Assembly: GCA_965248925.1 (NCBI GenBank)
Contig: CBDFLE010000005.1
Location: 1,664,001-1,728,000, forward strand
Origin: Candidatus Multivoradales bacterium
GTDB taxonomy: Bacteria; Acidobacteriota; Thermoanaerobaculia; Multivoradales; J023
DNA: 64,000 bases
Reading direction: 5' to 3'
Below are positions 12,624 through 32,908 of this stretch, piece after piece. The notes under the pieces were generated by a model, which was given only the letters and a program-made list of their open reading frames with translations, ran no database searches and was not told the DNA's origin. Each line of letters starts with the position of its first letter. The first letter of the stretch is position 1. A program made the position numbers and the translations under genes.

Positions 12624-13865
12624 ATGAGCGACGCCCGGCCAGAGGTTCTTCCACCGACTTCGATTCTGCTGATGGTCAGCATCGGCCTCATGGTTCTCGC
12701 GCTCGTGCTGTGGAGCCTGAGGGCCCGCTGGTTCTCGATTCTCCTGCGTGACCGCTTGGCGATGAACGTCTGCATGGCATTCGCCGGAAGCATCTTCATC
12801 ATTACTTTACTGACCCACTATTTCGAAACTGCCGAGAACCAGAACTTCACCAATTTCTACGAGTCCTTTTGGTCGATCACAGTCTTTATCTTCAGCGGGC
12901 TCGAAGATCGAGGCCCACAAACGCCAGGCGGACGGTTCAGCGCCACCCTCGGGTTGTTGCTCGGCCCCCTCTTCTTCGCCTTCATTACCGGCTGGCTGGC
13001 CAAAATACTGATCTTTTCGGAGAAACGCATGCCGCAGCATCTGCGAGACCACTACTTGATCCTCAACTGGAACTCCCGGGCCATTGACATCGCTCGCCAG
13101 TTGCACCATCCGTTGATCAAGGCGCGCGAAGGCAATGTGGTAATTGTGGTGCTTACAGATGACGAGAGTCTGAGCGTGAAACAGCTCAAGGAGGCTGGCA
13201 CCGGCTCTGATAAAGTCTTTGAAGATTTTTACCTCTGCGTCGGCGATCCAACCAAGGAGCACGCACTGCGCAATGCCAATGCCCACGATGCTAGAACGGT
13301 GCTAATCCTCGCCGATGAGCGCGCCGACTCTCATGCTGATGAGAACACAATCCGCTCCGTGGTCATGCTGCGCCGCCTCGCACGCCAGCAAAGGCTCGAC
13401 TCGATGCATGTGGTGGCGGAGCTGATCAATCCGGACAATGTAGAGGTACTCAACGAGGTGGGAAAGAACTTTCCGGGTCTTCTGGAACAAATCTCCGGTC
13501 TGCAAATTCGTACCTGCCTGATGGCCCAGGCGGCGCTCAATCCGGGAGCCATCGACTTCTATTCCGACTTGCTGCAGGTGACCAGTGACACCAACGAGGT
13601 CTACGTGCGACCGATTCCGGAATCGGTGGTTGGCACCAGCTTTCGCGACTTCGGCGCACTGATTTTGAGTGTTAGCACCAGTCAGCCGATGATCGCCGTC
13701 GGTGTCCAGCGAAGAACCAGCGGCAGAGCCAGAATTTTCTGCAACCCCCGCGACGGTGAGCCCGGAGCTGTACTGGGTCCGAACGACCAGATGGTGCTGC
13801 TCGCCTACGAACCGCCGCCGCAGGATGTTCTGCTGCAGCTTGCCAGTGGCGCCGACCATGGCTGA
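12624..13865 (+). CDS. Ion-channel protein: TM-pore-TM plus RCK/TrkA-N domain, non-canonical filter
   Basis: GGAG plus ATG 12624; pore helix FYESFWSITVFIFSGLEDRGPQTPGGR; RCK motifs HYLILNWN, GDPTKEHALRNANAHDARTVLILAD and HVVAEL. Confidence 0.85.
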   Translation: MSDARPEVLPPTSILLMVSIGLMVLALVLWSLRARWFSILLRDRLAMNVCMAFAGSIFIITLLTHYFETAENQNFTNFYESFWSITVFIFSGLEDRGPQTPGGRFSATLGLLLGPLFFAFITGWLAKILIFSEKRMPQHLRDHYLILNWNSRAIDIARQLHHPLIKAREGNVVIVVLTDDESLSVKQLKEAGTGSDKVFEDFYLCVGDPTKEHALRNANAHDARTVLILADERADSHADENTIRSVVMLRRLARQQRLDSMHVVAELINPDNVEVLNEVGKNFPGLLEQISGLQIRTCLMAQAALNPGAIDFYSDLLQVTSDTNEVYVRPIPESVVGTSFRDFGALILSVSTSQPMIAVGVQRRTSGRARIFCNPRDGEPGAVLGPNDQMVLLAYEPPPQDVLLQLASGADHG

Positions 13866-16614
13866 AGCGCTCGGCAGGCGCCGGCGTCGAATTGCCGAGC
13901 TGGCTTGGCTGGTCTTGCTGACTACGGTCCTCGGCTCCCTCCCCCTGCAAGCCCAGGGTCCAGGATTGCTGCAACCCCGCGAGGCCCAATTCGTATTCGT
14001 AGTCGACGATTCCGGGAGCATGTCCTTAGCAAAGTACGGACGAAATGATCCTGATCGACTGGCAGTATTCGCGGTGCGGGCATTGCTAGGGGTGCTCGAC
14101 GATAGGGACTGGGCAAGTATTGTCCGCCTCAATGGCCCCCGGGAGAACGAGCAATCTCCACCCCTGGCTCCCCTGGACCCGAATCACCGGCAGCGCTTGA
14201 AGAAGGTTCTCGACCTGGGCGGCAGCTTGGCGGCTTATCGCGGCCAGGTAACTCCGTGCCGGAGCGCGTTGGAGGATGCCAGGGAGCTTCTCGATGGGGC
14301 AGATCGAGCCAACACCTCGCAGGTTCTCATCTTCCTCAGCGATGGCCGGTGCACGCCGGGTGACGAAGAGCAAGTCGGCGGATTCCTCGATGGTCTGCGA
14401 TCCAATGAGGCTAGCGGCGGGCGATTTCAGTTCTATTTGTTGCGCTTTCAGGGAACGCAGCCAGCCCCCGAGCTGGAGCGCTTGGCGAAACTCACCGGCG
14501 GCGCCACTATCGAACTTAGAAGAGGCGACCCAACGAGGATTCTGCACGCCTTCGCACAAGCTCTGTCGCGCTCACAGGGCTACGAATCACAGATTCTCAA
14601 TGCCAGCAACTCCCTACTTCCGGCCCATCGTGGCGCACGTCGAGTAAGGCTGCTTGCGGTAGTCCCCGGAGAGGCCACTGAAGCGCTGGAAATTCGCCTC
14701 GCCGACCTCCAGGGCAATCCTATTAGAGTAACCACTATCGATCAGGCGCCGCATCATTACCTACCCGGAGGCCGAGAGTATCGCTTCGTGTCAGCTGAGT
14801 ACCGCCCCACCGGCGAGCCAGCTCGAGTTCAGGTCTTCGGCGCCGGTGACGCTTGGGACCTGGTCGCTCTGCCAGAGTATCGACTGAGAACAACCTTGGA
14901 TCTGCATCGGGGCCGCTGCGGTGCTAGCGGCCGACTTCTCGAGAGCAACACTCTGACCGCCGGGACCGATCTCTGTGCCGTCATCCGGCTGGTCAATTCT
15001 CGCAACCAAGCGGTGGGGCAAGATGTCACCCAAGGGAAACTCCGCGGAGTTCTCGAGATCTCTTCACCCCAACAGGGACCGCCCGTCGAGGTGAGCGCCA
15101 CCCCTTCCGATACCCGCGAGACTCGATTCGAACTCGACCTGCAAGCGCTAACAGAGGGCTACCACGCCCTCAGGGCAGCGGTGTACTTGTCTCCATCGGA
15201 CGGCGGCGAGCCCCGCACCCTACCGGCTCGCCCGCGCACTTTGCAGGCAGTCGACAGGGCGATCGAGGCGACACCAGGCGCGGTCGCGTTTGGCCAGGTA
15301 TTTCCAGGGCATGAGAGCACCGTGATGATGTCGCTAGCGGGTCGTTTTTCTGAGTCAGAAGCTCAGCTTGAGGTTCGCCGAGCCGACAAGGTCCCGACCT
15401 GCATCAACTTGAGCTTCGCCGGCCAACCGCTTGGCGTGCCTATACGGGTGCTCCCCAACCAGAAGTATCCGCTGGTCCTGCGGGTAGCCGAGAGCTGCGC
15501 TGAGGAGGAAGTCGCACCGTTCAGCTCGCAGTTGGTGGTGCGGATTCCCGAGTTACCGGCAGGTGGAGAGCTGACGGTGCCACTCACCTGGCGTCTCGAC
15601 AGCACGGTCCACCTCGGCAATGTCTTGAATCTAAGACTCAATGCCGGCGAGCTGAAGCAGGGTGAAGTGCCAGCACCGGTCGGGCTGGAAAGAGGCGACT
15701 ATCGGGCCCGCCTCGAGATAGTCCAGCCGCCGGGTGGCAAGCGATCTCAGAGCTTGCTCCTCGGTTTCCGTGGCGGGCGCCGAGAAGCGTCTACGCTGCT
15801 CGGAGAAGACGGAAAACCGCGCCTGAAAATGCCCGCCCCCTTTGGACCAGAAGACCCTATTCGACTACTGGCCCAAGCACGTCCGTGCTGCGGCGGCGGG
15901 CTCTACCACAGTCGCCTGCGGTTGACGCCGGTGGACGGTGGCCAAGCCCACGCGGTACCGATCGAAATCCTGGTCTCTGACGATTGGTGGGCCTGCTACC
16001 GCTCCTGGGTGTTGGCCGGCCTGCTCGGGTTGGTCGTGGCACTCGTTGTCTACTATGTTCTGAGCATGTTCACTCACAGTAGCTTCCTCAAACGCGAACA
16101 ACTGATGACCTCCCTACTGCCGCTGCGCTGGCCAGAGTATGGCGGCAAGCCACAGCCAGCGGCGCGCCGCCGGGGAGACAGGGAAGTGGTCGAGGACATG
16201 ATTCTGATGGATTTTCGTTGGCATCATCGAGCGCTCAACTGGCTTCAAGCCAATCCGCTGGCCTTCGGCCTACCCGGCAAGCGCTACCGCGAGACCCTCG
16301 AACTACAACTGAGCCAGCAGCTAGACGGCTCCACGGTCGAGCTAGTGCCCGAACGCGACGTGGTTGGGAGATTGACAAAAGTCAAGAACATCGAGAAGTG
16401 GGAGCAAGGCAGACTATTCCTTCTCACCGAAGGCGGGGTCGCCTTCTATGCCGTGCGCGGCGAGGAGGGCACCCTCGGCGTTCTCAAGCCCGAAGGTTGG
16501 AGCGGCAGAGGGGACCTCAAGATCGAGCGGATGAAAAAAGGACATCGGTTGATTCACAGAGACGCAAATCAGGAACACCAGGCCAGAGGGGTCGCCGGAT
16601 GGGTGCTCGGCTAG
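13858..16614 (+). CDS. Surface-exposed von Willebrand factor A domain protein with C-terminal TM anchor and cytoplasmic tail
   Basis: ATG 13858 overlaps the upstream stop; signal peptide ending ...LPLQAQ; MIDAS motifs FVVDDSGSM, TP and IFLSDG; beta-rich middle region; TM WVLAGLLGLVVALVVYYVL. Confidence 0.88.
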   Translation: MAEALGRRRRRIAELAWLVLLTTVLGSLPLQAQGPGLLQPREAQFVFVVDDSGSMSLAKYGRNDPDRLAVFAVRALLGVLDDRDWASIVRLNGPRENEQSPPLAPLDPNHRQRLKKVLDLGGSLAAYRGQVTPCRSALEDARELLDGADRANTSQVLIFLSDGRCTPGDEEQVGGFLDGLRSNEASGGRFQFYLLRFQGTQPAPELERLAKLTGGATIELRRGDPTRILHAFAQALSRSQGYESQILNASNSLLPAHRGARRVRLLAVVPGEATEALEIRLADLQGNPIRVTTIDQAPHHYLPGGREYRFVSAEYRPTGEPARVQVFGAGDAWDLVALPEYRLRTTLDLHRGRCGASGRLLESNTLTAGTDLCAVIRLVNSRNQAVGQDVTQGKLRGVLEISSPQQGPPVEVSATPSDTRETRFELDLQALTEGYHALRAAVYLSPSDGGEPRTLPARPRTLQAVDRAIEATPGAVAFGQVFPGHESTVMMSLAGRFSESEAQLEVRRADKVPTCINLSFAGQPLGVPIRVLPNQKYPLVLRVAESCAEEEVAPFSSQLVVRIPELPAGGELTVPLTWRLDSTVHLGNVLNLRLNAGELKQGEVPAPVGLERGDYRARLEIVQPPGGKRSQSLLLGFRGGRREASTLLGEDGKPRLKMPAPFGPEDPIRLLAQARPCCGGGLYHSRLRLTPVDGGQAHAVPIEILVSDDWWACYRSWVLAGLLGLVVALVVYYVLSMFTHSSFLKREQLMTSLLPLRWPEYGGKPQPAARRRGDREVVEDMILMDFRWHHRALNWLQANPLAFGLPGKRYRETLELQLSQQLDGSTVELVPERDVVGRLTKVKNIEKWEQGRLFLLTEGGVAFYAVRGEEGTLGVLKPEGWSGRGDLKIERMKKGHRLIHRDANQEHQARGVAGWVLG

Positions 16615-16659
16615 GCATCCCATGAACAAGCCTATTTCACGAAATAGAGAGGTTGTGCT

Positions 16660-19600
16660 ATGGCTAGGAATCGTAAATTGATCGTCGACGAGTTATTGAC
16701 CAAACCGAGCGGTGTTTGCCCGATGCTGTTCGTCGGACTAGGAGGGGCCGGTTGTCAAATAGTCGACCGGGTGGCCACGCACCTTCGCCGCAGGTCGGAT
16801 TTCGGCGAGCGCTACCAGGATTTGATCAAGTTCGCAATGGTCGACTCCAACGTCAACGACCTCGAAGGATATCGAGAGGTAGCAGACGCCACCTTTCTTA
16901 TCAGTGACTTCGAGAAAGAGGAGTACGCAAATCTGGCCTCAGGCAAGAGCTTTCTCGAGCCCGACACCTACTTCACCCAGTGGGTTCCGCCCGACTACCG
17001 CTTTCGTTCCGGAGATACCTCCGGCGCTGGTCAGATCAGGATCGAGTCACGCCTTGGGATCTACTACCAAATGAAGCATAGGGATTTCGTACAACGATTC
17101 CGACGGCTATTGGAGGATCTCAAGTCGCACGAGCACGGCCATCGTAAGCTCGACTCCAACGAAATCCGTATCGTTCTGTGCTACTCGATTGCCGGCGGCA
17201 CCGGCTCCGGCTGCCATCTCCCCCTGGCATACATGCTGCGAGATCAGGCGGCTGAGCTGGGACAGCCGGCGATCATTGGAGTAGCAGTCCTGCCGGCGGT
17301 TTTCGAGGACAAAGTGGGAGTCAACAAAGATGGCATCTTCGCCAACGGCTATGCCGCTCTGAAAGAAACCGAGCACCTGATGAAGCTAGGGGCACCTGAC
17401 TCACGGTTCTTTCCCAAAGACGGCCTCCCCTTACACTACAACCCTGCCGACTCGTCAAAGAAGATCGTCTCCGAACGCCCATTTGATTTTCTTTACTTGA
17501 TCGACAAGCCGGAGTCGTTCAGCGTTCCCGAACCAGTCGACGCCGCCGCCGACGGTCTTTACCTACAGTTTTTCTCACCCCTTTACGGCGCCCAACAGTC
17601 GGACTACGACAATTACACGCAGTACCAGCGCTTCCTTGTCCCGGAGGACTTCGAGGAGCGAGGCATCGTCGGCTTCTCCACCTTCTATGGTTCCTTTGGT
17701 TGCGCCGTCCTTCTCGTCCCGGTTCAGGGACTGGTGGAGTACTGCAGCCAGGCGGCGGCCCTGTCTCTAATCCGCGCCAGTTTTCTCGGTGAGATCCCCG
17801 GCGATCCCAACTACGAGATTCTACGTATTGATCCGGACCCATTCTACGAAGTCCGCGAGAGCGACGAGGAAGAAGCGCAGGTCGTCCGGGCCGCTGAGAT
17901 CGCCAATCAGCCCCAGAAACACCGCCGAGATCTGCTTTTCGACAAGCTCTTTTGCAAACGAGTGCGACTGCTGGCAGCCTGCGAGTATCAGGCGGAGAAA
18001 GACGGCCGCTTCCGTGGCATATTCCGCCACGGGCACTTCCTGGGCTCAATCCCCAAGACCAACGGCAACGTGGTTTACGACCCCGAGATCTATGGCGATG
18101 AGGAACGCCGCGAGCGCGACATAGTCGGCGGCAAGCTCAGAGTCTCAATCGGCGGAATCGTGCTGCCGGCACTGGTCGGATTGCCGAATGAAGACCCGGG
18201 CCTGCTCAATCAGGCGCAGCAAGCAATCCAGACCTTCAAGCCACCCAAGCCACGCCGCGAAATGCGAGTGACACAGCTCAGAGGGCGCGCCGCGGGGTGG
18301 CGCGACGACTTCAAGCGCGAGGGCTTGCGGCGGCTCCGCGAAGGCTACAACGAGGGTGCGGTCCGGGTACCAGGCATGGACCAGATGGTGGAGCTCGAGT
18401 TCCTCCGCCGCGAGGCCGGTGAAGTCGAACTCACCGCCAAGCGGTACGCCGTACTCGCGATCCTCGACGCTGTCGATTGGCACCAGCAACCGCCGGACGA
18501 CCTGGACGAAAGCTTCGACATCCCAAATAAGAAAGCCAAGATCAAGCCCGACGATGAGCTCATCGAGAACATCATCTCCCAAGCCCGGGATATGGCCTTT
18601 CAGGAAGTTCGCAGGGAATTCCTTGGCCGTCTCGGCGAACTTCGCAAAGCCCTCGATGGCTACGCCACGGAGATGCGCGACCTGGAGCGCGGCTCAACCC
18701 ATCTAGCGCGCGAATACAGCCGCAAGCTGGAACGCTTGCAAGACCACGGCGAGGAGTCCGCAAACCAGTATGTGCTCGACGCAGAAGCGCTGCAGGGCGA
18801 AGACAATCGCCGCTTCTGGGACTTTTACTTCGAAGACAAGATCGCCACGCTGCCCGAGTTCTCGCTGAGCAACAGGCGGGTGCAGCAGATTCTCAGTGAC
18901 ATGGTCATCGTGCTCTCCCAACGAGGGGACCGTGGCACTAGCACCTCAAGGCTGGAAAAGCTCTTCTCAGCGCTGCGCCAATACGCCCACGATCTATTGG
19001 AAAAGCGCATCGGCGGCGATCCGCACTCTCCAGACGAAGCACTGCGCGAGGGGCTCACTCTTTCCGACGCCCTCGAGCTTGAGATCATCTACCGGGCACT
19101 CTATCGCAGCCATGTCGAGGCGGTACGGGGCAAGGGCGAGAAAGTTGTCCGAGAAATTCTGTCCGAATACCGGGCGCTACCCAAAGAGCGTCAGGTCAAC
19201 TTTGGAGACCTCCATCACCAGGACTATCTACGTGACAAGATCCGCCGTGTAGTCCGTGAGAAGGCTTCGCTACTCTGCGTCTACGACCGTTCCAAAGATC
19301 AGCATGGAGGAGTGCGTCCGGACCATGTCTTTCTTGGCGCCATCGACGCCAATTTCAAGAACAGCAACATCGCGGATGCTCTGCGCGGCGCCGATATCGC
19401 CGACCTGAAGTGGGTATCGGGCAGCTGGCACAACGCCAAAGAGATCATCTTCTACAGCGCGGTGCTCAACGTGCCGCTCTACACCTTCGGTCGACTCGAC
19501 AGGATGAAGCACTTCTATGACAGCTTCCGCGGCCAGAAGCGGCGCTCGAAGGCACTGCACATCGATCAGAATTGGGAAGGTGAAAAGCTGCACGATCTTG

Positions 19601-23400: not shown

Positions 23401-24509
23401 CCAGCGGCCTGCTACGACTTCACACCCGCTATTTCCATCGTCGCCTGCGAGCCTGTATCGAGATGTTGGAAAATTCCGTCCAGCATCTGGTCGCCGGTAG
23501 TGACGGCACCGAGTTGCAGGACCAGCAACCCTCCTTGCGCTCGTTTTTCGAGATGAGGCTCCAGCTCACCGCAGCGCTGGCACGACGTGGCTACGCGCTG
23601 CACACCTACCAGCAAGCGGCAACGGACGAGGGCCTCGGTCAGCGGCTGCGAGAGAGCATCGATATTCAGCAGCACTGCATGCTGCGCCGTGCCGAAGAAC
23701 TCGGTGTACGACCGGCACCACCGGGTTCACAAGCCCGCGACGACCTGCGCGACATCTTCGTTCGCCGAGTCGGCGAGCGGATGGCGAAGCTGATCGATCC
23801 GAATCACCTGATGGAGTACTACCGCAGCCGAGTACGCCCGAACGAATTGCCGGTAGTCGATTTCCTCGACCAAAGCGGCGGACTGAGCGACTGGCGTAAG
23901 ACTGCCAGTCTGTCCGACACCGAGTCGCTAATGGGCTACGGCCGCGAACTCTTTGCTACCGTAGCGAACCATCCAATCACTGAGCTCGACTACTTCTCCG
24001 AAGTGGTCGGCAAGCACCTTCAGGACTTTGTCCGGCGCAACTACTCGAATCTTGGTTTTGGCGCCAAGTTCCTGGGCTACGAAGGGCTAGATCCAGACGG
24101 CGTGCGACTCGCCGCGGACGCTTCGTTAGTAGCGGATGGGCCGCTGCTAGCGGCCTACGACCAAGTCGAAGAGGAGTTCGATTCTAGCCCAAGAGACTCT
24201 CGCGACCTTTACCACCAACGACCTCGAAGCTTGGACCGCTTGATGGCAGGCATCCGTCCCAACGCGGCCTACATGTTCTCCCTAGTGCAGGGAGTGAGAG
24301 CGCACAGCGTACACAACCTGAAGCGTTTCGAGTCATTTCACGACCGCTCCGTGGAAGGCTCCAGAAATGGCCAAGCAATCCACCTACTGAGTGGCAATGA
24401 AGTTCTTGGAATGGAGCTACTGAAGAAGATCCGCAAGAATCAGCAGCCATCTAGCGACAACGGTGACTTGATAGAGGACGACCGGGAGAGCGACAGTGAA
24501 CTGGTCTGA
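20481..24509 (+). CDS. Degenerate tubulin-like protein with a predicted TM hairpin, 1342 aa
   Basis: ATGA overlap with the upstream gene; N-terminal PSLVVGMGRFGLAVLERL (T1-like); VFVVGDMSEP where the signature loop is expected, with no GGTGSG; coiled-coil-like region; hydrophobic hairpin GVTIWVLLLP...WALLASAGVTTVLASGLL. Confidence 0.6.
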   Translation: MTHPSLVYPAPSLVVGMGRFGLAVLERLGEDWKQLRLSGADQSLRNLRLIWLHSQGETEDCWRQEEEKELRIARYIKDGDLPTIALDFVALRTLGLIRYHHGAYQIAVPQDRGPVRVSDLLLEGSDRRDSGQHDGDREDPRNRKKEAEQFVRRRFFDWQDLDPDPLHAAEILRRKAERESPLHQFIAPLINRIRQGHSPWILLAAIQRCSSLASGRDPAPWRWVRQALSGHPPGPTSIPAPTIDQARQQHRDYDKLLDSLAPPALSIEGKHQEVNYNLSNLSADPLDGNGWEFAESEIIVPANFHPASDDPETPIDPFHLLNEDWQATGWATDLEEENEQPFKTLRVSHFRLGLFDHSATAHSEEKSLSEHLGQRLRLLADLLHKGLVRLWVDLKREQVEEFSPLPQLQRHEAAEEALQQSLKMLDELLIRPLHEEDGGPEQDHEQEAGPRDIDLLADRPTRFLRSLIFDPEPRAWEESALERRLAALGLADSANRPPAPRSLLQQVAFCRHEQPRDSLRKVLNREVRDLLDFSYLAEYRKKATRTPPRLTVFVVGDMSEPFARQKMTEVLRDIHSELLRSFSSMFELHREGFDRALSVVPILWMPHPADPFGGEPLEKTRLEEAAIIDSVHRVRRWVESVLPGSRRRISQIFINGRVTDNAVLTLRDSIQQTRDFLSFQIRNDLSRDDWLRRTAVGPGGDDLFASFACCEIEFPAERAREYLANRLVRECLHRLRGEPSSESPKVARSLAPPAKKELVEAASSDLEENTKRRARRLLTQVWEALPGKAKENRCLSRRQVLDAFDDAFEQRLWQGVLSLWRDLTQRCGRMDALIDDLRCQVSVKLHQTLPEIRQDSDNDIHRVSDQGLPAMLSRIGDRRREAFAVLQQTEKERRRNEQNCQRHRAPSRRQLQHARDEVVVAAENKPDCGPQRLGVTIWVLLLPATSALPVAGLASSLGEFWALLASAGVTTVLASGLLRLHTRYFHRRLRACIEMLENSVQHLVAGSDGTELQDQQPSLRSFFEMRLQLTAALARRGYALHTYQQAATDEGLGQRLRESIDIQQHCMLRRAEELGVRPAPPGSQARDDLRDIFVRRVGERMAKLIDPNHLMEYYRSRVRPNELPVVDFLDQSGGLSDWRKTASLSDTESLMGYGRELFATVANHPITELDYFSEVVGKHLQDFVRRNYSNLGFGAKFLGYEGLDPDGVRLAADASLVADGPLLAAYDQVEEEFDSSPRDSRDLYHQRPRSLDRLMAGIRPNAAYMFSLVQGVRAHSVHNLKRFESFHDRSVEGSRNGQAIHLLSGNEVLGMELLKKIRKNQQPSSDNGDLIEDDRESDSELV

Positions 24510-27500
24510 GGCCGCCGTGTTCGGCTATTTTTCGCTGGCTCTGTATCGGTTGGCGAGCCTGCCCGGCCACTATCTATTCATCTTGGTGGTCGTGCTGCTG
24601 GCAATCCCGTACACGACCGCCCACCTGCTGCAAGGCTGGCTGGTGAAGCGGCTTCGCGCTCGGCCCCTGAGACTTGCCCCGCTTGGGCGCGTGGAAGCGG
24701 CTCTGTCGATCATCGCACCGCTGGCTCTAGCCTATTTTCTGCTCGAGTGGATAGTACGCACCATCCGTACCTGGCTACTGCATCGACGCCAGGGGAAGAC
24801 GGCCGCAACGGCCGATTCGCCTGGCCTCGGCCACCGCGGGTTCTACATGCCTTCGATAAGAGTGCCGACCTTGGGCCCGACCTTCTTGCTAGCCGGGGTA
24901 ATCATCAGCGTTTTCTATTGGTCAGGCCGACTAGTGGACCCGTTGCTCGCCCGCGCCAGCGGCCTCAGCGCAGGCCATTCATTCTGGCAGCTCCTATTCC
25001 TTGGCCGCCGGCCGGAGTTCGCCTGGTTAAGCCCTCTCGAGGAACAGCCGCGGGTAACACTGGTGCTGAGCCTGGTCTTTTGGCTAGTAGTCTGGTGGAG
25101 TGCAGGTAACCTGCTGCGCGGCATACGCTATCGCTCGCTTCTGCAGCGCAATCACGGCGACATTCCTCAACCGCGGGTTGAAGCTCAGGAACCACGGTGG
25201 GCCACTTGGTTCGGCGTTGTCGACCTGATCCAGCCCGGCAGGAGCTACCGTCGCTGGGCATCGTGGATGCTGAGCACCATCATCGTGCTCCTATTGCTGG
25301 CCTACTCGACCCTGGACCGCAACATTGGAGGAGTGTCACCATCGGCCTTGGCGTTGGCGACCGTGGTGACACTCTCCTGGGTGTTGCACCTGCGCCTGCA
25401 CGGTTTTGCCACCCAGCACGAGACCGAGGTCGACGGCCAACGGGATTCCACCACGAAGAGGCCCGCGGGTTGGCCGGAAGTAGCAGCCGAACTCGGCCGT
25501 CTCTATGGTTGCGCCGCTCCTATTCCGCTCTTCGAGCGTGCCGTCGCACCTTTGCCACTGTCTGCCCCAGCTGGGCAGGCCTCAACCGTCTCGCCGCTGG
25601 TCGTCGAGCTGCTCGCAGGGGCAGACCAGGAGTCCACCCCTCGCCTGAATACGTTGCAGAAAAGGGTGCTGGAATGCATCTCTCTGCTTGGTTTCGTGCA
25701 ACTCCCAGCGCCAGTGGAAGGAGACGAGTTGATCCTGACCGGCTTCGGCGCCCAGCAAATCGAAGATCGCAGTGGCTTGGTAGAACGCCACCAGATCGTG
25801 CTCGCGCCCGAGGGCAGCGGCAAGACTACCCTGGCAATTCTAGCCGCCGCCAACCACGCGCTAACCCACGCCCGGGCAACCCTGATCGTTACCCGTTCGG
25901 AAAACCAGGCAGAGCTGCTCACCGCGCACATCCGCGCTACTGTCGAGCCATCCACTATGCGCTGGAACCTGCGCCTGCGACAGCTGGGGCGAGACTTCGC
26001 CAGCGACTTGAGCCGCGACATCATCCCCGACTTGGTAGTGGTGAGCCTGGAGCAGCTGGTCACCGGCCTTCTCGACAACCACGAGGTCTACATCCCATTT
26101 CTGCGCCACGTCGGCTTGGTGGTGGTGGACGATGTCGAATCCTACGCCGGCGCGGTGGAGATCCATGCCCAACTCGCTTTCCGTCGGCTTCAGCTGCTGT
26201 TCCGCCAACTCAGCGATGTCGAGTACCTAGGGGATGAAAACGCTCCCCTGATGCTGGTGCTTGGTGTCGATTCGATGAAACAAACCGCCAGTTGGGCGCA
26301 AAGCCTATGCGGTATCCAGGCTTCGATCCACACCTTCTCAGACCAGCACTCTACGGCATCTGTGAGCGAGGGCGACAGCCCACCGTGCCAGCAACAGCTG
26401 GGCTACCGCTTTTCAGATCTGCGGACAGACTCGGGGCGCCCGCTGACCGCGGCCGAAGTCGTCGGAGTCTGTGAGGCGCTGCGGGTGCCTTGGCTTTACC
26501 GACCTGCTGGTGATGGCAGACGCCACGCTGGCCGAGGGCCGCTACTGCTCAACCAAGAGCCCAGCCACGCCTGCGCCACTCCCGGCGACGCTTGCGTGGT
26601 CCTCCTGGAAGGGCGTTGGAGCGAAGTTCGCCGGGAGCTGCGCCGGCTCCGCTGGGCGGGCGCCGACAGCGGACGCAAGGAAGTTTGCTTCTTGACTGTG
26701 GTTGGGTGCGAAGAGCAGCAGGCCTGCGAGACGCTCGATCCAGCCTTCGGCTTGGCCCCTGGCGATGAACGCGAGGAACTCACCGACCTCAGCGAACAAC
26801 TGATCACACTGCCGCTACCGATTGTCCGACCTCCCTCGACTCTGGCCGTGCAATCCCATCTCCTATCCGACCTGCTACAACAGTGGATCGAGGTCAAAGA
26901 TCTGGTGGATACCTTCGGCGGTACCGTAGTGCAGTCACTTCGCCGCCTCAACCGTCAGGGCATGCTTTTCATCGAAGAGCGCTGCGACGTCAAGCCGGAG
27001 CGCAAGGAATATGAGGCCAAGGTCTACCTCCGTGCCACCGCGGCTTCGCTCCAAGACGAGACAGCAGGGGAAGCAGGCAAGGGCATCATCGAACTTGCTC
27101 AGTACGACAAGGTGCGGCAAGTTGAGCTGGTGTCACCCCAGGCAGTAAGGGTGCGAAACCGCTCCGATCACACCCAACTAGGCTGGGTAGAGGCCCGCAG
27201 CGCTAGTGCGGTCTACTACCCCGGACGGATTCTCGAGGACGCCCGTGGACGCTTCGTGGTGGTCAGCCGCAGGGATGAGGGAGAATTGATTGCGGATGTC
27301 GAGGTCGAGCCGGTCCTGCACGCTGACATTTCCAGTCCACGACGTCGCTTCGAGGTCGACGTGGACACCGCGATTGAACTCCCCTCCTACCCCTTGTTCA
27401 AGCTCGAACCGGTGCTATTAGGGCAGGACCCGGTCGAGGTCGGGCTGCAACCCGTTACAGCGCGGCTGAGAATGATCGGCTTCTACCGTCTTGATCGCTA

Positions 27501-28293
27501 CAGCGGTGAAGTGCAATCGAGGGAGATTCTTCGCTCACCTGGCAGCGGCTCGGTCGCCAGTAGCATCCTCGGCGGCAGCCTGCAAACTACCGCTCTCGTG
27601 CTCAACCCAAACCCGGCAAAGACCAGTCCTGGAACACCGCAGCTGAACTTCGGCGAAGCACGCTTGCTGTGCGCCCTGTTGCGCTACTTGCTGCCCATGG
27701 TCTATCGCGACACTCGGGATCATTTCGAAGTCGCTCTAGTGATCGCCGGCCTGACGGTGGAGACCGAGCAAGAGCCACCACGCTGGGACGCTCCCCTTCA
27801 AGCCCAAGACCGGATCTTCATCCTTGACTTGCAGCAAGGTGGCAACGGCATTGCACGGGCGATATTCCGCGATGGCTTGGAGCTTCTGTTTCGCTTCTGC
27901 CGCCACTTCCTGGAAACCGTCGAGGGCTTCAGCCGTTTGCAGCGACTCTATGACCATTGGGGGCATGCCGACGAGATATTGCAAGACGGACGGCGCGGTC
28001 AGAACCCGGAAACAGAGACGGTTGCTGCTGAACACCATCGGGGAGCCAACCAGGTGCTTACCGAGACTGAGCAAGAAGCCAGTGATCAGGAGACAGACGA
28101 TCAGGACCGAACCGACCGCACGGAGCCGCCGGGACACGCCCCTCGATGTTCACCCTTGGTGGCACGTCGAGACGGCCTACTTGACTGGCTCGCCAGCCGC
28201 CTGCACCCCGAGCCACAGCCCAGATCTAGGCCCAGGCCGGAACCTACAGCACCGGAGTCCGAGTCGGCTGACAATTCAGAGGAGGTAAGATGA
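24496..28293 (+). CDS. Polytopic membrane protein fused to a degenerate SF2 (MrfA/DUF1998-like) helicase
   Basis: About 6-7 hydrophobic segments in the first 300 aa; LNTLQ (Q motif), APEGSGKT (Walker A), VVVDDVESYAG (motif II variant), YPGRI and IFILDLQQGGNGIA (DUF1998-like). Confidence 0.75.
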   Translation: MNWSEAAVFGYFSLALYRLASLPGHYLFILVVVLLAIPYTTAHLLQGWLVKRLRARPLRLAPLGRVEAALSIIAPLALAYFLLEWIVRTIRTWLLHRRQGKTAATADSPGLGHRGFYMPSIRVPTLGPTFLLAGVIISVFYWSGRLVDPLLARASGLSAGHSFWQLLFLGRRPEFAWLSPLEEQPRVTLVLSLVFWLVVWWSAGNLLRGIRYRSLLQRNHGDIPQPRVEAQEPRWATWFGVVDLIQPGRSYRRWASWMLSTIIVLLLLAYSTLDRNIGGVSPSALALATVVTLSWVLHLRLHGFATQHETEVDGQRDSTTKRPAGWPEVAAELGRLYGCAAPIPLFERAVAPLPLSAPAGQASTVSPLVVELLAGADQESTPRLNTLQKRVLECISLLGFVQLPAPVEGDELILTGFGAQQIEDRSGLVERHQIVLAPEGSGKTTLAILAAANHALTHARATLIVTRSENQAELLTAHIRATVEPSTMRWNLRLRQLGRDFASDLSRDIIPDLVVVSLEQLVTGLLDNHEVYIPFLRHVGLVVVDDVESYAGAVEIHAQLAFRRLQLLFRQLSDVEYLGDENAPLMLVLGVDSMKQTASWAQSLCGIQASIHTFSDQHSTASVSEGDSPPCQQQLGYRFSDLRTDSGRPLTAAEVVGVCEALRVPWLYRPAGDGRRHAGRGPLLLNQEPSHACATPGDACVVLLEGRWSEVRRELRRLRWAGADSGRKEVCFLTVVGCEEQQACETLDPAFGLAPGDEREELTDLSEQLITLPLPIVRPPSTLAVQSHLLSDLLQQWIEVKDLVDTFGGTVVQSLRRLNRQGMLFIEERCDVKPERKEYEAKVYLRATAASLQDETAGEAGKGIIELAQYDKVRQVELVSPQAVRVRNRSDHTQLGWVEARSASAVYYPGRILEDARGRFVVVSRRDEGELIADVEVEPVLHADISSPRRRFEVDVDTAIELPSYPLFKLEPVLLGQDPVEVGLQPVTARLRMIGFYRLDRYSGEVQSREILRSPGSGSVASSILGGSLQTTALVLNPNPAKTSPGTPQLNFGEARLLCALLRYLLPMVYRDTRDHFEVALVIAGLTVETEQEPPRWDAPLQAQDRIFILDLQQGGNGIARAIFRDGLELLFRFCRHFLETVEGFSRLQRLYDHWGHADEILQDGRRGQNPETETVAAEHHRGANQVLTETEQEASDQETDDQDRTDRTEPPGHAPRCSPLVARRDGLLDWLASRLHPEPQPRSRPRPEPTAPESESADNSEEVR

Positions 28294-29465
28294 GGAGACC
28301 TCGGGGTAGCCGGCTGCGGCCAGCAGCCTGTAGCGCAGTCCTGATGATCTTGACCAGCGGCTGTGGGTATTTCGAGCAACTGTTGGGCGAACTACCCTTG
28401 GAGGTCGATCCGCGCCGCATCTTTCTGGTCGCGAGGTCGCAATCCTTGGCCAACGGCCAAGCTGAGCCGATATTCGGTGCTGCCAGCGAGCTCTGGGGAT
28501 TCGACCCTTGTGCAGGCTCGGCGGACAAGTTTAGGGGCCGATTGCGGCTCGCTAGCCTGTTCACCGCTGAGCTACCGTCAGACCAAGGCTGGGTACCGGC
28601 CGAGTCGCCCCAAGCAACAATCCTGGTCCACTACCGCGACGGATCGCCAGTGCCGACCGCCTACGTCTATGCAGAAAAGATCGGTGCTGGCGGTGCAGCA
28701 ACCAACTCACACCCCTTCCTGGAGCGGCTGGACCAACGCCTCACTCTGCCAAACCTACCCGGTCTCAGAGAGCTGCATTTAGACACTGGAAGGTCAGCAA
28801 TCTCCACCGCGGTGCAGCCGATTCAACGGAGCGCAGAGAAGCCCGTCGAAGCCAGGCTGACGACTTCGACCAGGGACTCCTCAGCCAGCGGGCTGGCGCA
28901 ATCGAACGCACTGACTGTGCCATCGGACAGCAAGCAGGGGAGATTACCGCAGCCACCAACGGCCAACAACACGATCTCTACGCGGCCCAAGGATGGCAAC
29001 CAGCGACAGACCGACCAGGCCGACACCCTGGCAGTCGGCTACAGATCACGAAGAGGATCCTTCTCCGGCTGGAAGTGGATCGGGACCTGTGCGCCGTCCG
29101 GGCCCCTAGCGGACGCTTGGCTCGAGCCATCGACTCTGACGACGACAACGGCTGCCACCGACAGACCATTTCTGCGTTTGGCCAGGAGTGAAGGCCAATG
29201 GCGTTTGAGTCCTGGCGACGAGGCTCTACCCGCTCTGCAGGTCCTGGCGACCGTGACCATGCAAGGTCGACCCAACTACGGCATCAGGCTAGCGATGGTC
29301 TGTAGGATGGGCCCTGACTGTCAGGACGCGCCGACATTGGCCCGCCTGATCGGTTCGCTGCGAGCAACACCGAACTCCAGCAGCTTTGGTGACCGTGGTT
29401 GGCCACAGCGAGATCTGCAGGAACTAGCCACAGACGTGGGAATCGAGCTAGCGCCGATGCACTAG
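28290..29465 (+). CDS. Putative lipoprotein of unknown function
   Basis: ATGA overlap and GGAGG RBS; basic N-terminus, hydrophobic stretch and lipobox LTSG-C. Confidence 0.7.
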   Translation: MRRPRGSRLRPAACSAVLMILTSGCGYFEQLLGELPLEVDPRRIFLVARSQSLANGQAEPIFGAASELWGFDPCAGSADKFRGRLRLASLFTAELPSDQGWVPAESPQATILVHYRDGSPVPTAYVYAEKIGAGGAATNSHPFLERLDQRLTLPNLPGLRELHLDTGRSAISTAVQPIQRSAEKPVEARLTTSTRDSSASGLAQSNALTVPSDSKQGRLPQPPTANNTISTRPKDGNQRQTDQADTLAVGYRSRRGSFSGWKWIGTCAPSGPLADAWLEPSTLTTTTAATDRPFLRLARSEGQWRLSPGDEALPALQVLATVTMQGRPNYGIRLAMVCRMGPDCQDAPTLARLIGSLRATPNSSSFGDRGWPQRDLQELATDVGIELAPMH

Positions 29466-32861: not shown

Positions 32862-32908
32862 GGCCTCTCCCTATTGGCGGCGAGAATTATCATTCAGCGG
32901 CCCTGTGA

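What the first reader, a model, noticed from the sequence alone, without database searches (positions are those of the whole stretch)
12624..29465. Six-gene envelope-spanning tubulin-like system: channel + vWA + active and degenerate tubulin pair + membrane pseudo-helicase + lipoprotein
Seen in sequence: six co-oriented genes over ~17 kb. Four of the five junctions overlap (13858/13865, ATGA at 20481, 24496/24509, ATGA at 28290), and five of the six products are predicted to be membrane-bound. Established: FtsZ-like (FtsZl/Tubulin_2) families were described computationally in operons with vWA proteins and proposed to remodel membranes (Makarova and Koonin 2010). I know of no experimental characterisation. 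Inference: this version has no TRAFAC GTPase or kinase inside the operon and instead couples an ion channel and a TM-fused helicase-like protein. It could be an adhesion- or contact-triggered trans-envelope machine, in which an outer vWA sensor signals to a membrane-tethered GTP-dependent polymer, used for membrane remodelling, cell-cell interaction or conflict/defence. This is the best candidate for an undescribed system in the window.
Basis: partly seen in the sequence, partly recalled or inferred. Interest (0 to 1): 0.88.

Follow-up and report, generated by a model that had tools for sequence, protein, structure and literature searches.

The report
Tubulin pair with membrane-anchored helicase operon
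A rare, conserved bacterial gene cluster joins an outward-facing adhesion-type sensor, a working tubulin-like GTPase, a degenerate membrane-anchored tubulin look-alike and a membrane-anchored DNA-helicase-like motor, a combination not found described in the papers searched and whose function is still untested.

Summary
The six co-oriented genes and their overlapping junctions are real. The conserved unit is smaller than six genes. In 32 related loci, the Tubulin_2 gene, the 1342-aa unknown and the helicase-like gene are adjacent wherever the contig allows. The vWA gene is present in 24 of 28 loci with upstream sequence. The RCK channel (2 of 32) and the lipoprotein (3 of 32) are lineage-specific.

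A predicted structure supports the "degenerate tubulin": the 17 best of 48,161 PDB chains are all tubulin/FtsZ proteins, Z 11.1-14.5, and the GGTGSG signature is missing. The "pseudo-helicase" is a 6-TM-anchored MrfA/YprA-type helicase (Foldseek E 6.4e-24). Its Walker A and B motifs are kept and its zinc cluster is lost, so "pseudo" is not shown.

This is a new variant of the FtsZl1-vWA operons of Makarova and Koonin (2010). It lacks the GTPases of the tubulin-vWA conflict systems of Kaur et al. (2020). My best guess (0.4) is an envelope-triggered conflict system. Function is untested. Cultured Bradymonadales carry it.

The parts
13858..16614 (+). vWA sensor protein (918 aa). It has a signal peptide, an extracytoplasmic vWA domain with a complete MIDAS site, a Cys-rich beta-rich ectodomain, one TM (about aa 718-736) and a conserved cytoplasmic tail ending in AGWxVG.
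   Evidence: Pfam VWA_2 E 3e-5. D50, S52, S54, T132 and D162 are invariant in 23 orthologues, as are nine cysteines, W795, N799, P800 and the C-terminal A913 G914 W915. Hydropathy. Present in 24 of 28 related loci that have upstream sequence.
16660..20484 (+). FtsZl1/Tubulin_2 GTPase (1274 aa). The N-terminal tubulin-like domain (aa 23-371) keeps its nucleotide motifs. It is followed by about 900 aa of unassigned, largely conserved sequence and has no TM.
   Evidence: Pfam Tubulin_2 E 1.6e-44. G26, G28, G29, G31 and A178-G179-G180-T181-G182-S183-G184 are invariant in 10 orthologues. 49.5-76% identity to the window protein across the full-length matches. Present in 31 of 32 loci.
20481..24509 (+). 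Degenerate tubulin-fold protein (1342 aa). The tubulin/FtsZ-like domain spans aa 9 to about 732 and carries a large insertion. It is followed by a helical region, a TM hairpin (aa 933-978) and a conserved C-terminal domain.
   Evidence: No Pfam, NCBIfam or PADLOC family. AF2 model of aa 1-930, pLDDT 76.3. VIA-align wide search: ranks 1-17 of 48,161 chains are all tubulin/FtsZ/CetZ/TubZ/PhuZ, Z 11.1-14.5. All 50 listed rows of the second look are tubulin superfamily, Z 13.4-14.8. GxGxxG is kept (G16, G18, G21 invariant in 32 sequences) but the G-box position reads VVGDMSEPF.
24496..28293 (+). Membrane-anchored MrfA/YprA-like SF2 helicase (1265 aa). It has six predicted TM segments (aa 19-297), then RecA1, RecA2, a helical region, beta-rich domains and a DUF1998-like end without the four-Cys cluster.
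   Evidence: Pfam DEAD E 5.2e-6. AF2 model of aa 310-1175, pLDDT 82.0, pTM 0.85. Foldseek best hit is MrfA 6znp_A, E 6.4e-24, TM 0.53/0.60 over 922 columns; the next family, Hel308, is at 4.8e-9. Walker A (APEGSGKT) and Walker B (VVDDVE) residues are conserved. Present in 28 of 28 loci with downstream sequence.
28290..29465 (+). Putative lipoprotein (391 aa), coupled to the helicase gene by an ATGA overlap. It is an add-on of this lineage.
   Evidence: Translation. No family. Homologue found in 3 of 32 loci (L026, L027, L052) and in L018.
12624..13865 (+). RCK-domain channel-like protein (413 aa). It overlaps the vWA start by 8 nt here but is not a conserved member of the system.
   Evidence: Pfam Slo-like_RCK E 1.1e-6 and TrkA_N E 3.6e-6. 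Three hydrophobic segments. Homologue found in 2 of 32 related loci: L037 on the opposite strand, and a 99-aa piece in L038.
30090..30836 (-). 248-aa protein of an unnamed family that travels with the system. Here it runs convergent to the operon and is preceded by a 184-aa two-TM protein at 29512-30066.
   Evidence: tblastn finds it in 9 of 32 loci. In 5 of them it lies directly upstream of vWA on the same strand, with spacing from a 19-nt overlap to a 7-nt gap. Conserved motifs in alignment A6. No Pfam family in any of 10 members at a meaningful E-value.
29512..30066 (-). 184-aa protein with two hydrophobic segments, lying between the 248-aa gene and the end of the operon. Its link to the system is weak.
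   Evidence: Hydropathy. No Pfam family. Homologue found in 2 of 32 loci (L027, L028), next to the 248-aa gene.

Best explanation
The core is a conserved four-gene module at the inner membrane.

1. A vWA protein exposes an intact metal-dependent ligand-binding site on the outer face of the membrane. One helix and a conserved tail pass to the cytoplasm.
2. A soluble FtsZl1 tubulin-like GTPase keeps all its nucleotide motifs.
3. A paralogue-like tubulin-fold protein has lost the GTP signature and is tied to the membrane by a helical hairpin.
4. A six-TM-anchored MrfA/YprA-type helicase completes the set.

Proposed mechanism (inferred, not shown): ligand binding or envelope disturbance at the vWA ectodomain is passed through the membrane. 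The degenerate tubulin then nucleates or caps GTP-dependent assembly of the active tubulin at that spot. The assembly recruits or switches on the anchored helicase, which engages single-stranded or entering DNA at the membrane. In most orthologues, but not in this window, the helicase also carries a transglutaminase-like C-terminal domain.

The most likely biological role is conflict or defence against invading DNA (phage or other mobile elements). In logic it resembles envelope-sensing systems that hand over to a cytoplasmic helicase.
For: Shown:
- The four genes stay adjacent. Tubulin is present in 31 of 32 loci, helicase in 28 of 28 loci with downstream sequence, and vWA in 24 of 28 loci with upstream sequence.
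- Spacing is tight: a median of 2.5 nt between tubulin and gene 4, and 23 nt between gene 4 and the helicase.
- The MIDAS site is complete and invariant in 23 sequences.
- The G-box and T1 motifs of gene 3 are invariant.
- Gene 4 has the tubulin/FtsZ fold without the G-box.
- Gene 5 has MrfA architecture with the P-loop Lys and Walker B conserved.

Bearing on a conflict role:
- Occurrence is patchy. Full-length orthologues of at least 50% identity occur in 10 of 40 relatives searched, and in 4 of 8 genomes of one genus.
- The system is present in two phyla, and the Myxococcota/Bradymonadales rows form a single clade among Acidobacteriota clades.
- The periphery varies: the channel, the lipoprotein, the 248-aa gene, and gain or loss of the transglutaminase-like end, which is fused in 14 of the 32 loci.
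- The outward-facing vWA protein is the least conserved part (29-61% identity) and the tubulin the most conserved (49.5-76%).
[quoted passage not shown] 2025 preprint, sections 5 and 7 read).
- Tubulin-vWA gene sets have been argued to be conflict systems (Kaur et al. 2020, section 29 read).
- Another Tubulin_2 operon in a relative (L058) carries trypsin, PEGA and FGE-sulfatase genes. These are the effector and sensor types named in that paper.
- An RHS-repeat gene and transposases lie upstream in the window.
Against: - No PADLOC model matches any of the six proteins beyond a P-loop stretch.
- No nuclease or other obvious killing effector is present in this window's version.
- The nearest solved helicase is the repair enzyme MrfA, and no DISARM or Druantia helicase is among the listed Foldseek rows.
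- Gene 4 has no relative on 72,556 plasmids. Gene 3 has only one weak match among 50,697 phage records.
- Downstream neighbours are lipid-metabolism genes, not a defence island.
- The tubulin is very conserved for a defence gene (mean column identity 67%).
- The family is confined to a few lineages: 121 representatives among 1.84 billion. That could equally fit a lineage-specific piece of cell biology.
- Homology of gene 4 to gene 3 is not seen by profile comparison. The pairing idea therefore rests on a predicted fold and on adjacency.
- There are no expression or interaction data.
Confidence: 0.4

Rival explanations
1. A lineage-specific cytoskeletal and membrane-remodelling apparatus, as Makarova and Koonin proposed for FtsZl1 operons. 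The tubulin pair shapes or buds the inner membrane at sites marked by the vWA protein. The helicase-like ATPase serves as a membrane-bound motor or scaffold, not as a DNA enzyme.
For: - This is the proposal of Makarova and Koonin 2010 for FtsZl1-vWA operons with many membrane proteins (passages read).
- Four of the six proteins have TM segments.
- The tubulin and gene 4 are strongly conserved.
- There are no defence-model hits.
- Motif-VI-like arginines of the helicase vary between orthologues, and the window protein reads RLRWAGADS where most read RLxRAGxRF. That would fit a relaxed or altered ATPase role.
Against: - The whole OB-CON-DUF1998-like canopy of a DNA helicase is retained and modelled with high confidence. 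Strongly conserved motifs lie in it, such as YYPGRIF. This is hard to explain without a nucleic-acid substrate.
- Occurrence is patchy even within a genus, which argues against a core cell-biological role.
Confidence: 0.2
2. A DNA transport machine for uptake, export or partition at the membrane. The six-TM domain and the helicase pull single-stranded DNA through or along the membrane. The tubulin-like polymer positions or moves the DNA, as TubZ or PhuZ do. The vWA ectodomain acts as the outside receptor.
For: - A DNA-helicase architecture is fused to a polytopic membrane domain.
- Gene 4's fold also matches tubulin-family polymers that move DNA, TubZ and PhuZ.
- From recall only: membrane-associated DEAD-box ComFA drives DNA import in competent Gram-positive bacteria.
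Against: - No competence, pilus, secretin or relaxase families were found in the six ORFs or the flanking genes scanned.
- The membrane domain has no recognisable relative (no usable hit).
- The system is not found on plasmids.
Confidence: 0.15
3. An adhesion or contact apparatus for cell-cell interaction or predation. vWA binds a surface ligand on prey or kin, and the cytoskeletal pair transmits force or signal.
For: - The MIDAS site is intact and faces outward.
- Carriers include Bradymonadales (Lujinxingia vulgaris, Bradymonas sediminis), which I recall to be predatory bacteria.
- An RHS-repeat gene lies nearby in the window.
Against: - Most carriers are Thermoanaerobaculia MAGs of unknown lifestyle.
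- Four Myxococcota loci, including the cultured L. vulgaris TMQ2, lack the vWA gene next to the other three genes.
- The helicase is left unexplained.
Confidence: 0.1

Closest known systems
FtsZl1 (Tubulin_2)-vWA operons of Makarova and Koonin 2010 (PMC2875224; passages read)
   Same: A Tubulin_2-family GTPase with a long non-tubulin C-terminal part sits next to a vWA protein with an intact MIDAS site, a signal peptide and a TM. It is surrounded by uncharacterised membrane proteins. Distribution is patchy.
   Different: The operons described there often carry protein kinases, diverged P-loop GTPases or OmpA-like proteins. None was detected in these six ORFs. The word 'helicase' does not occur in that paper's main text. 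Its unnamed families A1-A2 and B1-B9 are listed only in supplements that I could not open, so genes 4 and 5 may or may not be among them.
GAP1-N2 GTPase-centric tubulin/vWA conflict systems of Kaur, Burroughs, Iyer and Aravind 2020 (PMC7159879; section 29 read)
   Same: Tubulin-domain proteins with coiled-coil or helical tails are combined with membrane-bound vWA proteins whose vWA domain is extracellular. The Firmicutes versions have two tubulin genes. The authors interpret them as membrane-proximal conflict systems that assemble cytoskeleton-like complexes.
   Different: Those systems are built around one or two TRAFAC GTPases with zinc ribbons and an FNIII-repeat protein, sometimes with HSP70 and GrpE. 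None of these is present here. They have no YprA-like helicase ('DUF1998' has 0 occurrences). They were reported in Actinobacteria and Firmicutes, not in Acidobacteriota or Bradymonadales.
MrfA/YprA family of DUF1998 helicases (Roske et al. 2021, search listing only; Bell et al. 2025 preprint, sections 5 and 7 read)
   Same: The predicted cytoplasmic part of gene 5 superposes on MrfA over RecA1, RecA2 and the C-terminal canopy. The paralogous protein in relatives hits Pfam MZB.
   Different: - It has six N-terminal TM segments.
- The four-Cys zinc cluster is absent.
- Walker B reads DDVE instead of DEAH.
- There is no MrfB nuclease, methyltransferase or other partner known from DISARM, Druantia, Dpd or ARMADA.
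- 'Tubulin', 'vWA' and 'transmembrane' have 0 occurrences in the main text of the YprA survey. Its supplementary tables were not visible.
Alpha/beta-tubulin and BtubA/B type heterodimers (recalled; BtubA, Asgard AtubA/B and gamma-tubulin appear among the fold matches)
   Same: Two adjacent tubulin-fold genes, one with full nucleotide motifs and one altered. This suggests a heterotypic longitudinal contact, capping or nucleation.
   Different: Here the second member has lost the G-box altogether, carries a roughly 430-aa insertion and is membrane-anchored. No interaction has been shown, and profile comparison finds no sequence similarity between the two.
Zorya anti-phage system (mechanism recalled, not read here; only a search listing mentioning Zorya was seen)
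   Same: An analogy of logic only: an envelope-embedded sensor passes a signal inward to recruit a cytoplasmic helicase-type effector near the site of DNA entry.
   Different: No homologous components. Zorya uses a MotAB-like ion-driven motor and a nuclease/helicase pair, and has no tubulin or vWA protein.

Membership tests
FtsZ/tubulin superfamily, Tubulin_2 (FtsZl1) family: gene 3 | Match to the family profile above the curated cut-off | tested here: met
   PF13809 E 1.6e-44, 153.1 bits against a cut-off of 27, covering profile positions 1-355 of 356. The same gene is found by a genome search with the family, E 2.0e-45.
FtsZ/tubulin superfamily, Tubulin_2 (FtsZl1) family: gene 3 | Glycine-rich T1 loop and the GGTGSG-type T4 signature for GTP binding | tested here: met
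   G26, G28, G29, G31 and A178-G179-G180-T181-G182-S183-G184 are invariant in 10 orthologues. The naming of the loops is from recall.
FtsZ/tubulin superfamily, Tubulin_2 (FtsZl1) family: gene 3 | GTP-dependent polymerisation | not testable with these tools
   Needs purified protein.
FtsZ/tubulin superfamily: gene 4 | Tubulin/FtsZ fold (nucleotide-binding domain plus the start of the second domain) | tested here: met
   The model has pLDDT 76.3. In the search of 48,161 chains that does not rely on Foldseek, ranks 1-17 are all tubulin/FtsZ/CetZ/BtubA/TubZ/PhuZ, with Z 11.1-14.5, 144-232 residues aligned and rmsd 2.8-4.6 A. SDR Rossmann proteins follow at Z 10.7 or lower. Foldseek alone gave no hit at E <= 0.001, though tubulins headed its list.
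FtsZ/tubulin superfamily: gene 4 | GTP-binding signature (G-box) | tested here: not met
   The stretch after the matching strand reads VVGDMSEPF. D557 and E560 are at least 90% conserved and F562 is invariant in 32 orthologues. There is no GGTGSG.
FtsZ/tubulin superfamily: gene 4 | Detectable sequence similarity to tubulin-family profiles | tested here: not met
   No Pfam hit. hhalign against the gene 3 family gave probability 0.7%. Domain-wise, the best result was E 0.0056 at probability 6.5%. A profile search of PDB sequences found no tubulin.
FtsZl1-vWA operon (Makarova and Koonin 2010) | FtsZl1 gene adjacent to a vWA gene with an intact MIDAS site in a predicted operon | tested here: met
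   There is a 45-nt gap in the window. The pair is adjacent in 24 of 28 loci with upstream sequence. The MIDAS residues are invariant.
GAP1-N2 GTPase-centric conflict system (Kaur et al. 2020) | One or two TRAFAC-clade GTPases with N-terminal zinc ribbons, plus an FNIII-repeat component | tested here: not met
   No GTPase, zinc-ribbon or FNIII family was found in the six ORFs with Pfam or NCBIfam at E <= 0.1. Gene 6 has no recognisable family, so a very diverged component cannot be excluded.
YprA/MrfA (DUF1998) helicase family: gene 5 | RecA1-RecA2 core followed by the OB-CON-DUF1998 canopy | tested here: met
   Foldseek to MrfA 6znp_A gives E 6.4e-24, TM 0.53/0.60 and 922 columns, 15 orders of magnitude better than the next family. 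The model has pLDDT 82.0 and pTM 0.85.
YprA/MrfA (DUF1998) helicase family: gene 5 | Four-cysteine zinc cluster of DUF1998/MZB | tested here: not met
   No Pfam MZB hit for the window protein. The only invariant Cys in 25 orthologues of the cytoplasmic part is C659, which lies in the RecA2 region. Bell et al. note that Dpd helicases lost the cluster too.
YprA/MrfA (DUF1998) helicase family: gene 5 | Helicase motifs I and II compatible with ATP hydrolysis | tested here: inconclusive
   A437, P438, E439 and G442 are invariant, and K443 and T445 are at least 90% conserved. D545, D546 and E548 are at least 90% conserved, but the motif reads DDVE and not DExH. R713 is invariant in the motif-VI-like helix, while the flanking arginines vary and are W and D in the window protein. 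Activity needs an assay.
Known anti-phage defence systems in PADLOC-DB v2 | Match of any component to a defence-system model | tested here: not met
   The best match is a 58-residue P-loop stretch of gene 5 to a DRT-associated helicase model, E 2.3e-5. All other matches have E >= 0.015.

The most novel reading that the evidence does not exclude
A cytoskeleton-based immune relay. An outward-facing vWA receptor detects an invader at the envelope. A membrane-anchored pseudo-tubulin then seeds a local polymer of an active tubulin-like GTPase. This polymer switches on a helicase embedded in the same membrane, which seizes DNA as it enters the cell. That would be the first bacterial defence in which a tubulin pair is the signal transducer, and the first membrane-integral member of the YprA helicase family.
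Probability: 0.25. Interest if true: 0.85.

Novelty: new variant of a known kind. Interest (0 to 1): 0.62.

Why it matters
FtsZl1 proteins are the least understood branch of the tubulin/FtsZ superfamily. I found no experimental work on them in the library searches made here.

This operon gives that branch a defined and testable partner set. It has a degenerate, membrane-tethered second tubulin, which would be a prokaryotic counterpart of active/inactive tubulin pairs. It also has a membrane-integral YprA-type helicase, from a family now known to be central to several anti-phage systems.

If the parts act together, the system would link cytoskeletal GTPase assembly to nucleic-acid handling at the membrane. 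It would also extend the YprA family to a new cellular location.

The system occurs in cultured Bradymonadales: Bradymonas sediminis and Lujinxingia vulgaris TMQ2. Genetics and imaging are therefore feasible.

Tried and rejected
- **Sequence homology of gene 4 to gene 3.** hhalign of the two ortholog alignments gave probability 0.7%. Domain-wise local hhalign gave at best E 0.0056 at probability 6.5% for the N-terminal 120 residues. My eye-read similarity of the two C-terminal domains was not supported (E 0.12) and I drop it.
- **Profile searches of PDB sequences.** The gene 3 and gene 4 alignments gave nothing useful. The gene 5 alignment gave only a weak Brr2 P-loop hit.
- **Complex prediction.** I tested the vWA cytoplasmic tail against the gene 3 GTPase domain and the gene 4 C-terminal domain. 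The result was no support (score 0.00) and the controls were not run. This is no evidence either way. The pair I most wanted to test, the gene 3 domain with the gene 4 tubulin-like domain, exceeds the 1000-residue limit without cutting out the insertion, which I did not do.
- **Expression.** No RNA holder is listed for the stretch. The four runs listed all come from one sample and are kept as contigs, so I did not lay reads.
- **ESM Atlas.** For the 248-aa protein, the nearest clusters are unnamed. An OmpA-family cluster appears only at rank 12 with score 0.88. A Pfam scan of 10 members found no OmpA and a PDB profile search found nothing. My OmpA-like reading of its motif is therefore an unconfirmed lead. 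For the gene 5 membrane domain there was no usable hit.
- **Kinase as part of the system: rejected.** It lies 1.2 kb upstream and is separated by a probable transposase remnant. Kinase matches occur in the flanks of only 2 of 32 loci.
- **Mobile-element carriage.** Gene 4 has no plasmid match. Gene 3 has one weak phage-record match.
- **More distant Tubulin_2 loci of relatives (L058-L063).** They share nothing detectable by tblastn with the closest paralogous operon (L024) apart from the tubulin domain. The one locus scanned (L058) is a different operon type.
- **Base composition.** It gives no sign of a foreign island.
- **Promoter and terminator scans.** They were no better than shuffles.
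- **Supplements.** Those of Makarova and Koonin 2010 (families A1-A2 and B1-B9), Kaur et al. 2020 and Bell et al. 2025 were not visible. They may already list genes 4 and 5.

Full report
**What is in the sequence.**
Six + strand ORFs occupy 12624-29465.
- ATG 13858 lies inside the end of the first gene (stop at 13865).
- ATGA overlaps occur at 20481 and 28290.
- GTG 24496 lies 14 nt before the stop at 24509.
- There is a 45-nt gap with a purine-rich stretch before the ATG at 16660.

Pfam results:
- Gene 1: RCK/TrkA_N domains.
- Gene 2: VWA_2, E 3e-5, just under the cut-off.
- Gene 3: Tubulin_2, E 1.6e-44.
- Gene 5: DEAD, E 5.2e-6.
- Genes 4 and 6: nothing.

NCBIfam adds nothing above its cut-offs. 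PADLOC gives only a 58-residue P-loop match. A hydropathy scan finds three hydrophobic segments in gene 1, a signal peptide plus one TM in gene 2, a hairpin at aa 933-978 in gene 4, and six segments in the first 300 residues of gene 5. It finds no convincing TM in gene 3. Gene 6 starts with a hydrophobic stretch ending in Cys.

**Which genes belong together.**
Relatives of the window's genome were searched with gene 3.
- 18 of 41 genomes gave a match.
- Only 10 of the 40 other genomes gave a full-length match at 50% identity or more. In one genus that was 4 of 8.
- The remaining matches are paralogues at about 30-34% identity over the tubulin domain.

A pattern search of 185,579 species genomes with the gene 4 alignment returned 32 loci. 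By record title these are mostly Thermoanaerobaculia and other Acidobacteriota MAGs. There is also a Myxococcota/Bradymonadales group that includes the cultured Lujinxingia vulgaris TMQ2.

tblastn of the window's proteins against these 32 loci gave the counts below.

| Gene | Loci with a match | Comment |
|---|---|---|
| Gene 3 (tubulin) | 31 of 32 | The missing one is a 3-kb contig |
| Gene 5 (helicase) | 28 of 32 | The four without end inside or just after gene 4 |
| Gene 2 (vWA) | 24 of 32 | See next paragraph |
| Gene 6 (lipoprotein) | 3 of 32 | Also in L018, |
| Gene 1 (RCK) | 2 of 32 | One on the opposite strand, one a 99-aa piece |

Of the eight loci without a vWA match, four begin inside or after the tubulin gene. 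The other four (L042, L044, L054, L055, all Myxococcota) have 3-6 kb of upstream sequence and still show no match, even with Myxococcota vWA queries.

Spacing is tight and conserved. The median is 51 nt between vWA and tubulin, 2.5 nt between tubulin and gene 4, and 23 nt between gene 4 and gene 5. In the five loci where the 248-aa gene lies just upstream of vWA on the same strand, the spacing runs from a 19-nt overlap to a 7-nt gap.

The conserved unit is therefore tubulin + gene 4 + gene 5, nearly always with vWA and often with the 248-aa protein. The channel and the lipoprotein are peculiar to this lineage. In this genome the channel gene probably is co-transcribed, given its 8-nt overlap.

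**Gene 2.**
In 23 orthologues the MIDAS residues (D50, S52, S54, T132, D162) are invariant. So are nine cysteines, the TM region and a cytoplasmic tail with invariant W795, N799, P800, G804 and a terminal AGW. The vWA domain and a long Cys-rich region are therefore outside the cytoplasm, and a conserved tail is inside. Identity to the window protein is 29-61%, the lowest of the four core proteins.

**Gene 3.**
The glycine-rich first loop and the AGGTGSG signature are invariant in 10 orthologues, as are many other positions of the domain. Mean column identity is 67% and the protein is 49.5-76% identical across two phyla. The 900 residues after the domain have no family. Makarova and Koonin describe the usual FtsZl1 build as a tubulin-like domain, a coiled coil and a helical C-terminal domain.

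**Gene 4.**
No sequence method ties it to tubulin. A model of residues 1-930, built from 32 orthologues, has pLDDT 76.3.
- Foldseek gave no hit at E <= 0.001, but tubulins, gamma-tubulin, OdinTubulin, PhuZ and FtsZ fill much of its list.
- VIA-align on those candidates put only tubulin-superfamily chains in its 50 listed rows. Z was 13.4-14.8, with 183-233 residues aligned, rmsd 3.1-4.6 A and model range 9 to about 732.
- The search that does not depend on Foldseek ranked CetZ, FtsZ, BtubA, alpha/beta-tubulin, Asgard tubulin, gamma-tubulin, PhuZ and TubZ in places 1-17 of 48,161 chains, at Z 11.1-14.5. Short-chain dehydrogenases follow at Z 10.7 and below.

The margin over generic Rossmann folds is 1-4 Z units, so the call is good but not beyond doubt. 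The match runs into the second tubulin domain (chain residues up to about 350), which dehydrogenases lack.

The first Gly loop survives (G16, G18, G21 invariant in 32 sequences). Where the G-box should be, the protein reads VVGDMSEPF. About 430 residues are inserted between the first strands and this point. After residue 740 come long helices, the TM hairpin and a strongly conserved C-terminal domain.

The family is rare. There are 121 representatives at E <= 0.001 among 1.84 billion, and 157 clusters at 90% identity. All 120 clusters listed lack a Pfam domain, and where they are named they are called hypothetical. One is from Bradymonas sediminis.

**Gene 5.**
A model of residues 310-1175 has pLDDT 82.0 and pTM 0.85. 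It matches the DUF1998 helicase MrfA with E 6.4e-24 over 922 columns. The next family, Hel308, stands at 4.8e-9.

In 15 orthologues the Walker A stretch APEGSGKT is conserved: A437, P438, E439 and G442 are invariant, and K443 and T445 are at least 90% conserved. The Walker B stretch VVDDVE is also conserved, with D545, D546 and E548 at 90% or more. One orthologue (L039) has lost the lysine.

A motif-VI-like helix holds the invariant R713. The two arginines that most orthologues have after it (RLxRAGxRF) are W and D in the window protein and its nearest relatives. My mapping of this helix to motif VI is an inference from the model's secondary structure. The four-Cys cluster that names DUF1998 is absent.

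So this is a diverged, membrane-integral YprA-family protein. Whether it still hydrolyses ATP or moves on DNA is open, and 'pseudo-helicase' is not established.

Fourteen of the 32 related loci carry a C-terminal extension of about 350 aa on this protein. One of four long orthologues scanned hits Transglut_core weakly (E 0.0069, below the cut-off). Its Cys is present in 3 of the 5 long forms aligned. The window protein lacks this extension, and no separate copy lies in the window.

**Wider pattern.**
The closest paralogous Tubulin_2 operon in relatives (L024, L025) reads vWA, vWA, Tubulin_2, then an unassigned protein of about 840 aa that begins with a similar Gly-rich strand-loop. Next comes a protein of about 1000 aa with a Pfam MZB hit (E 5e-4).
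- That MZB protein aligns to the C-terminal half of gene 5, including the YPGRIF and GG-G motifs, at hhalign probability 49-64%.
- The 840-aa protein shows weak similarity to distant members of the gene 4 family.

The quartet of vWA, tubulin, second tubulin-like protein and YprA-like protein thus seems to be an operon type with at least two deep branches. This rests on 2 of 2 loci of that paralogue. Six more distant Tubulin_2 loci share only the tubulin domain with it by tblastn. The one scanned (L058) is a different type, with zinc ribbons, trypsin, PEGA and FGE-sulfatase-TPR genes. These are components named by Kaur et al. for their GTPase-centric conflict systems.

**Context and evolution.**
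Upstream of the system lie:
- an RHS-repeat gene that runs off the window;
- an rve-type transposase and a PPC-domain protein;
- a Ser/Thr kinase with TPR repeats;
- a 98-aa ORF with a weak match to the start of Mutator-family transposases (E 0.0017).

Downstream lie the convergent 184-aa and 248-aa genes, then lipid-metabolism and respiratory genes. Base composition is unremarkable.

In a tree of 29 full-length gene 3 proteins, the seven Myxococcota/Bradymonadales rows form one clade (support 100). It sits among several Acidobacteriota clades on an unresolved backbone. The window groups with L026-L028 (100) and then L052 (99). The tree is unrooted, so no direction of transfer can be read from it.

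**How it most likely works.**
Shown: the parts, their topology, their motifs, their folds (predicted) and their conserved adjacency.

Inferred:
- The vWA ectodomain is the input.
- Gene 4 anchors and seeds or caps a polymer of gene 3 at the membrane.
- Gene 5 is the output, acting on nucleic acid at the membrane.

I rate a conflict or defence role at 0.4, for four reasons:
- Occurrence is patchy.
- The periphery and the helicase end vary.
- The helicase family has a record in DISARM, Dpd, Druantia and ARMADA.
- Tubulin-vWA sets have already been read as conflict systems.

Against this reading:
- No known defence model matches.
- The window's version has no nuclease or other effector.
- MrfA, a repair enzyme, is the nearest solved relative.
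- The system is not carried on plasmids or phages.
- The neighbourhood is not a defence island.
- The tubulin is highly conserved.

The rivals are membrane remodelling (0.2), DNA transport (0.15) and adhesion or predation (0.1). The remainder is unassigned.

**Novelty.**
The kind, FtsZl1 with vWA, has been known computationally since 2010, and related tubulin-vWA sets were re-read as conflict systems in 2020. As far as I could check, three things are new:
- the identification of gene 4 as a degenerate, membrane-anchored tubulin-fold partner;
- the identification of gene 5 as a membrane-integral YprA/MrfA-type helicase;
- their invariable pairing with the FtsZl1 gene.

Full-text searches for DUF1998 + vWA + tubulin found 0 papers. 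Searches for tubulin-like + helicase + von Willebrand + defense system also found 0. MrfA/DUF1998/transmembrane/tubulin returned nothing relevant. The YprA survey does not contain the words tubulin, vWA or transmembrane in its main text. I therefore file this as a new variant of a known kind.

Noticed in passing
window 8967-11429 (+): An 820-aa Ser/Thr protein kinase with one TM and TPR repeats (Pkinase E 1.6e-39, TPR_12 E 5.7e-28). It lies 1.2 kb upstream on the same strand. Kinase-domain matches occur in the flanks of only 2 of 32 related loci, so it is probably not part of the system.
   Followed up: partly
window 12040-12336 (-): A 98-aa ORF with a weak match to the N-terminus of Mutator/IS256-type transposases (PF00872 E 0.0017, below the cut-off). 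It is probably an IS remnant marking the upstream edge of the cluster.
   Followed up: partly
window 3-4208 (-) and 5304-6686 (-): An RHS-repeat protein (over 1402 aa, running off the window start; RHS_repeat E 2.2e-34) and an rve-type integrase/transposase (E 2.1e-22) lie upstream. This suggests a variable region.
   Followed up: no
L029-L032, L035, L037, L038, L043, L045, L046, L049, L051, L053, L056 (3' end of the gene 5 orthologue): Fourteen of the 32 related loci carry a C-terminal extension of about 350 aa on the helicase, with a GDCDSKS-type motif. There is a weak Transglut_core hit in 1 of 4 scanned (E 0.0069). The Cys is missing in 2 of the 5 long forms aligned. The extension is absent from the window and its nearest relatives.
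   Followed up: partly
L024 1112-14745 and L025 735-14622: A paralogous operon in relatives reads two vWA genes, Tubulin_2, an unassigned protein of about 840 aa with a Gly-rich start, and a protein of about 1000 aa with Pfam MZB (E 5e-4). The MZB protein aligns to the C-terminal half of gene 5 at hhalign probability 49-64%.
   Followed up: partly
L058 3983-19830 (-): A third kind of Tubulin_2 operon in a same-order genome. The tubulin is fused to double zinc ribbons, and the operon also has a trypsin-like peptidase, a PEGA-domain protein and a TPR-FGE-sulfatase protein.
   Followed up: no
L042, L044, L054, L055 (upstream of the tubulin gene): Four Myxococcota loci, including cultured Lujinxingia vulgaris TMQ2, have no detectable vWA gene upstream. 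In L055 the space holds a 667-aa ORF and smaller ORFs with no Pfam family.
   Followed up: partly
G000 contig C6 1281695-1282219 (-), locus L002: The window's own genome has a second, weak Tubulin_2 match (E 3.5e-5, below the cut-off, profile positions 2-177) in an 812-aa open frame.
   Followed up: no
G020 contig C2 381829-385620 (locus L010/L021): In this relative the tubulin gene and gene 4 lie in the same frame, separated by a single TGA (open frame 2646 aa with 1 TGA inside the match).
   Followed up: no
window 31989-41582 (-) and 45142-47910 (-): Downstream genes include a fatty-acid hydroxylase, a PhoD-like phosphatase, an AMP-binding/PP-binding enzyme with a separate NAD_binding_4 reductase, an alpha/beta hydrolase and a radical SAM protein. 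Further on lie a multi-haem cytochrome and a cytochrome b.
   Followed up: no
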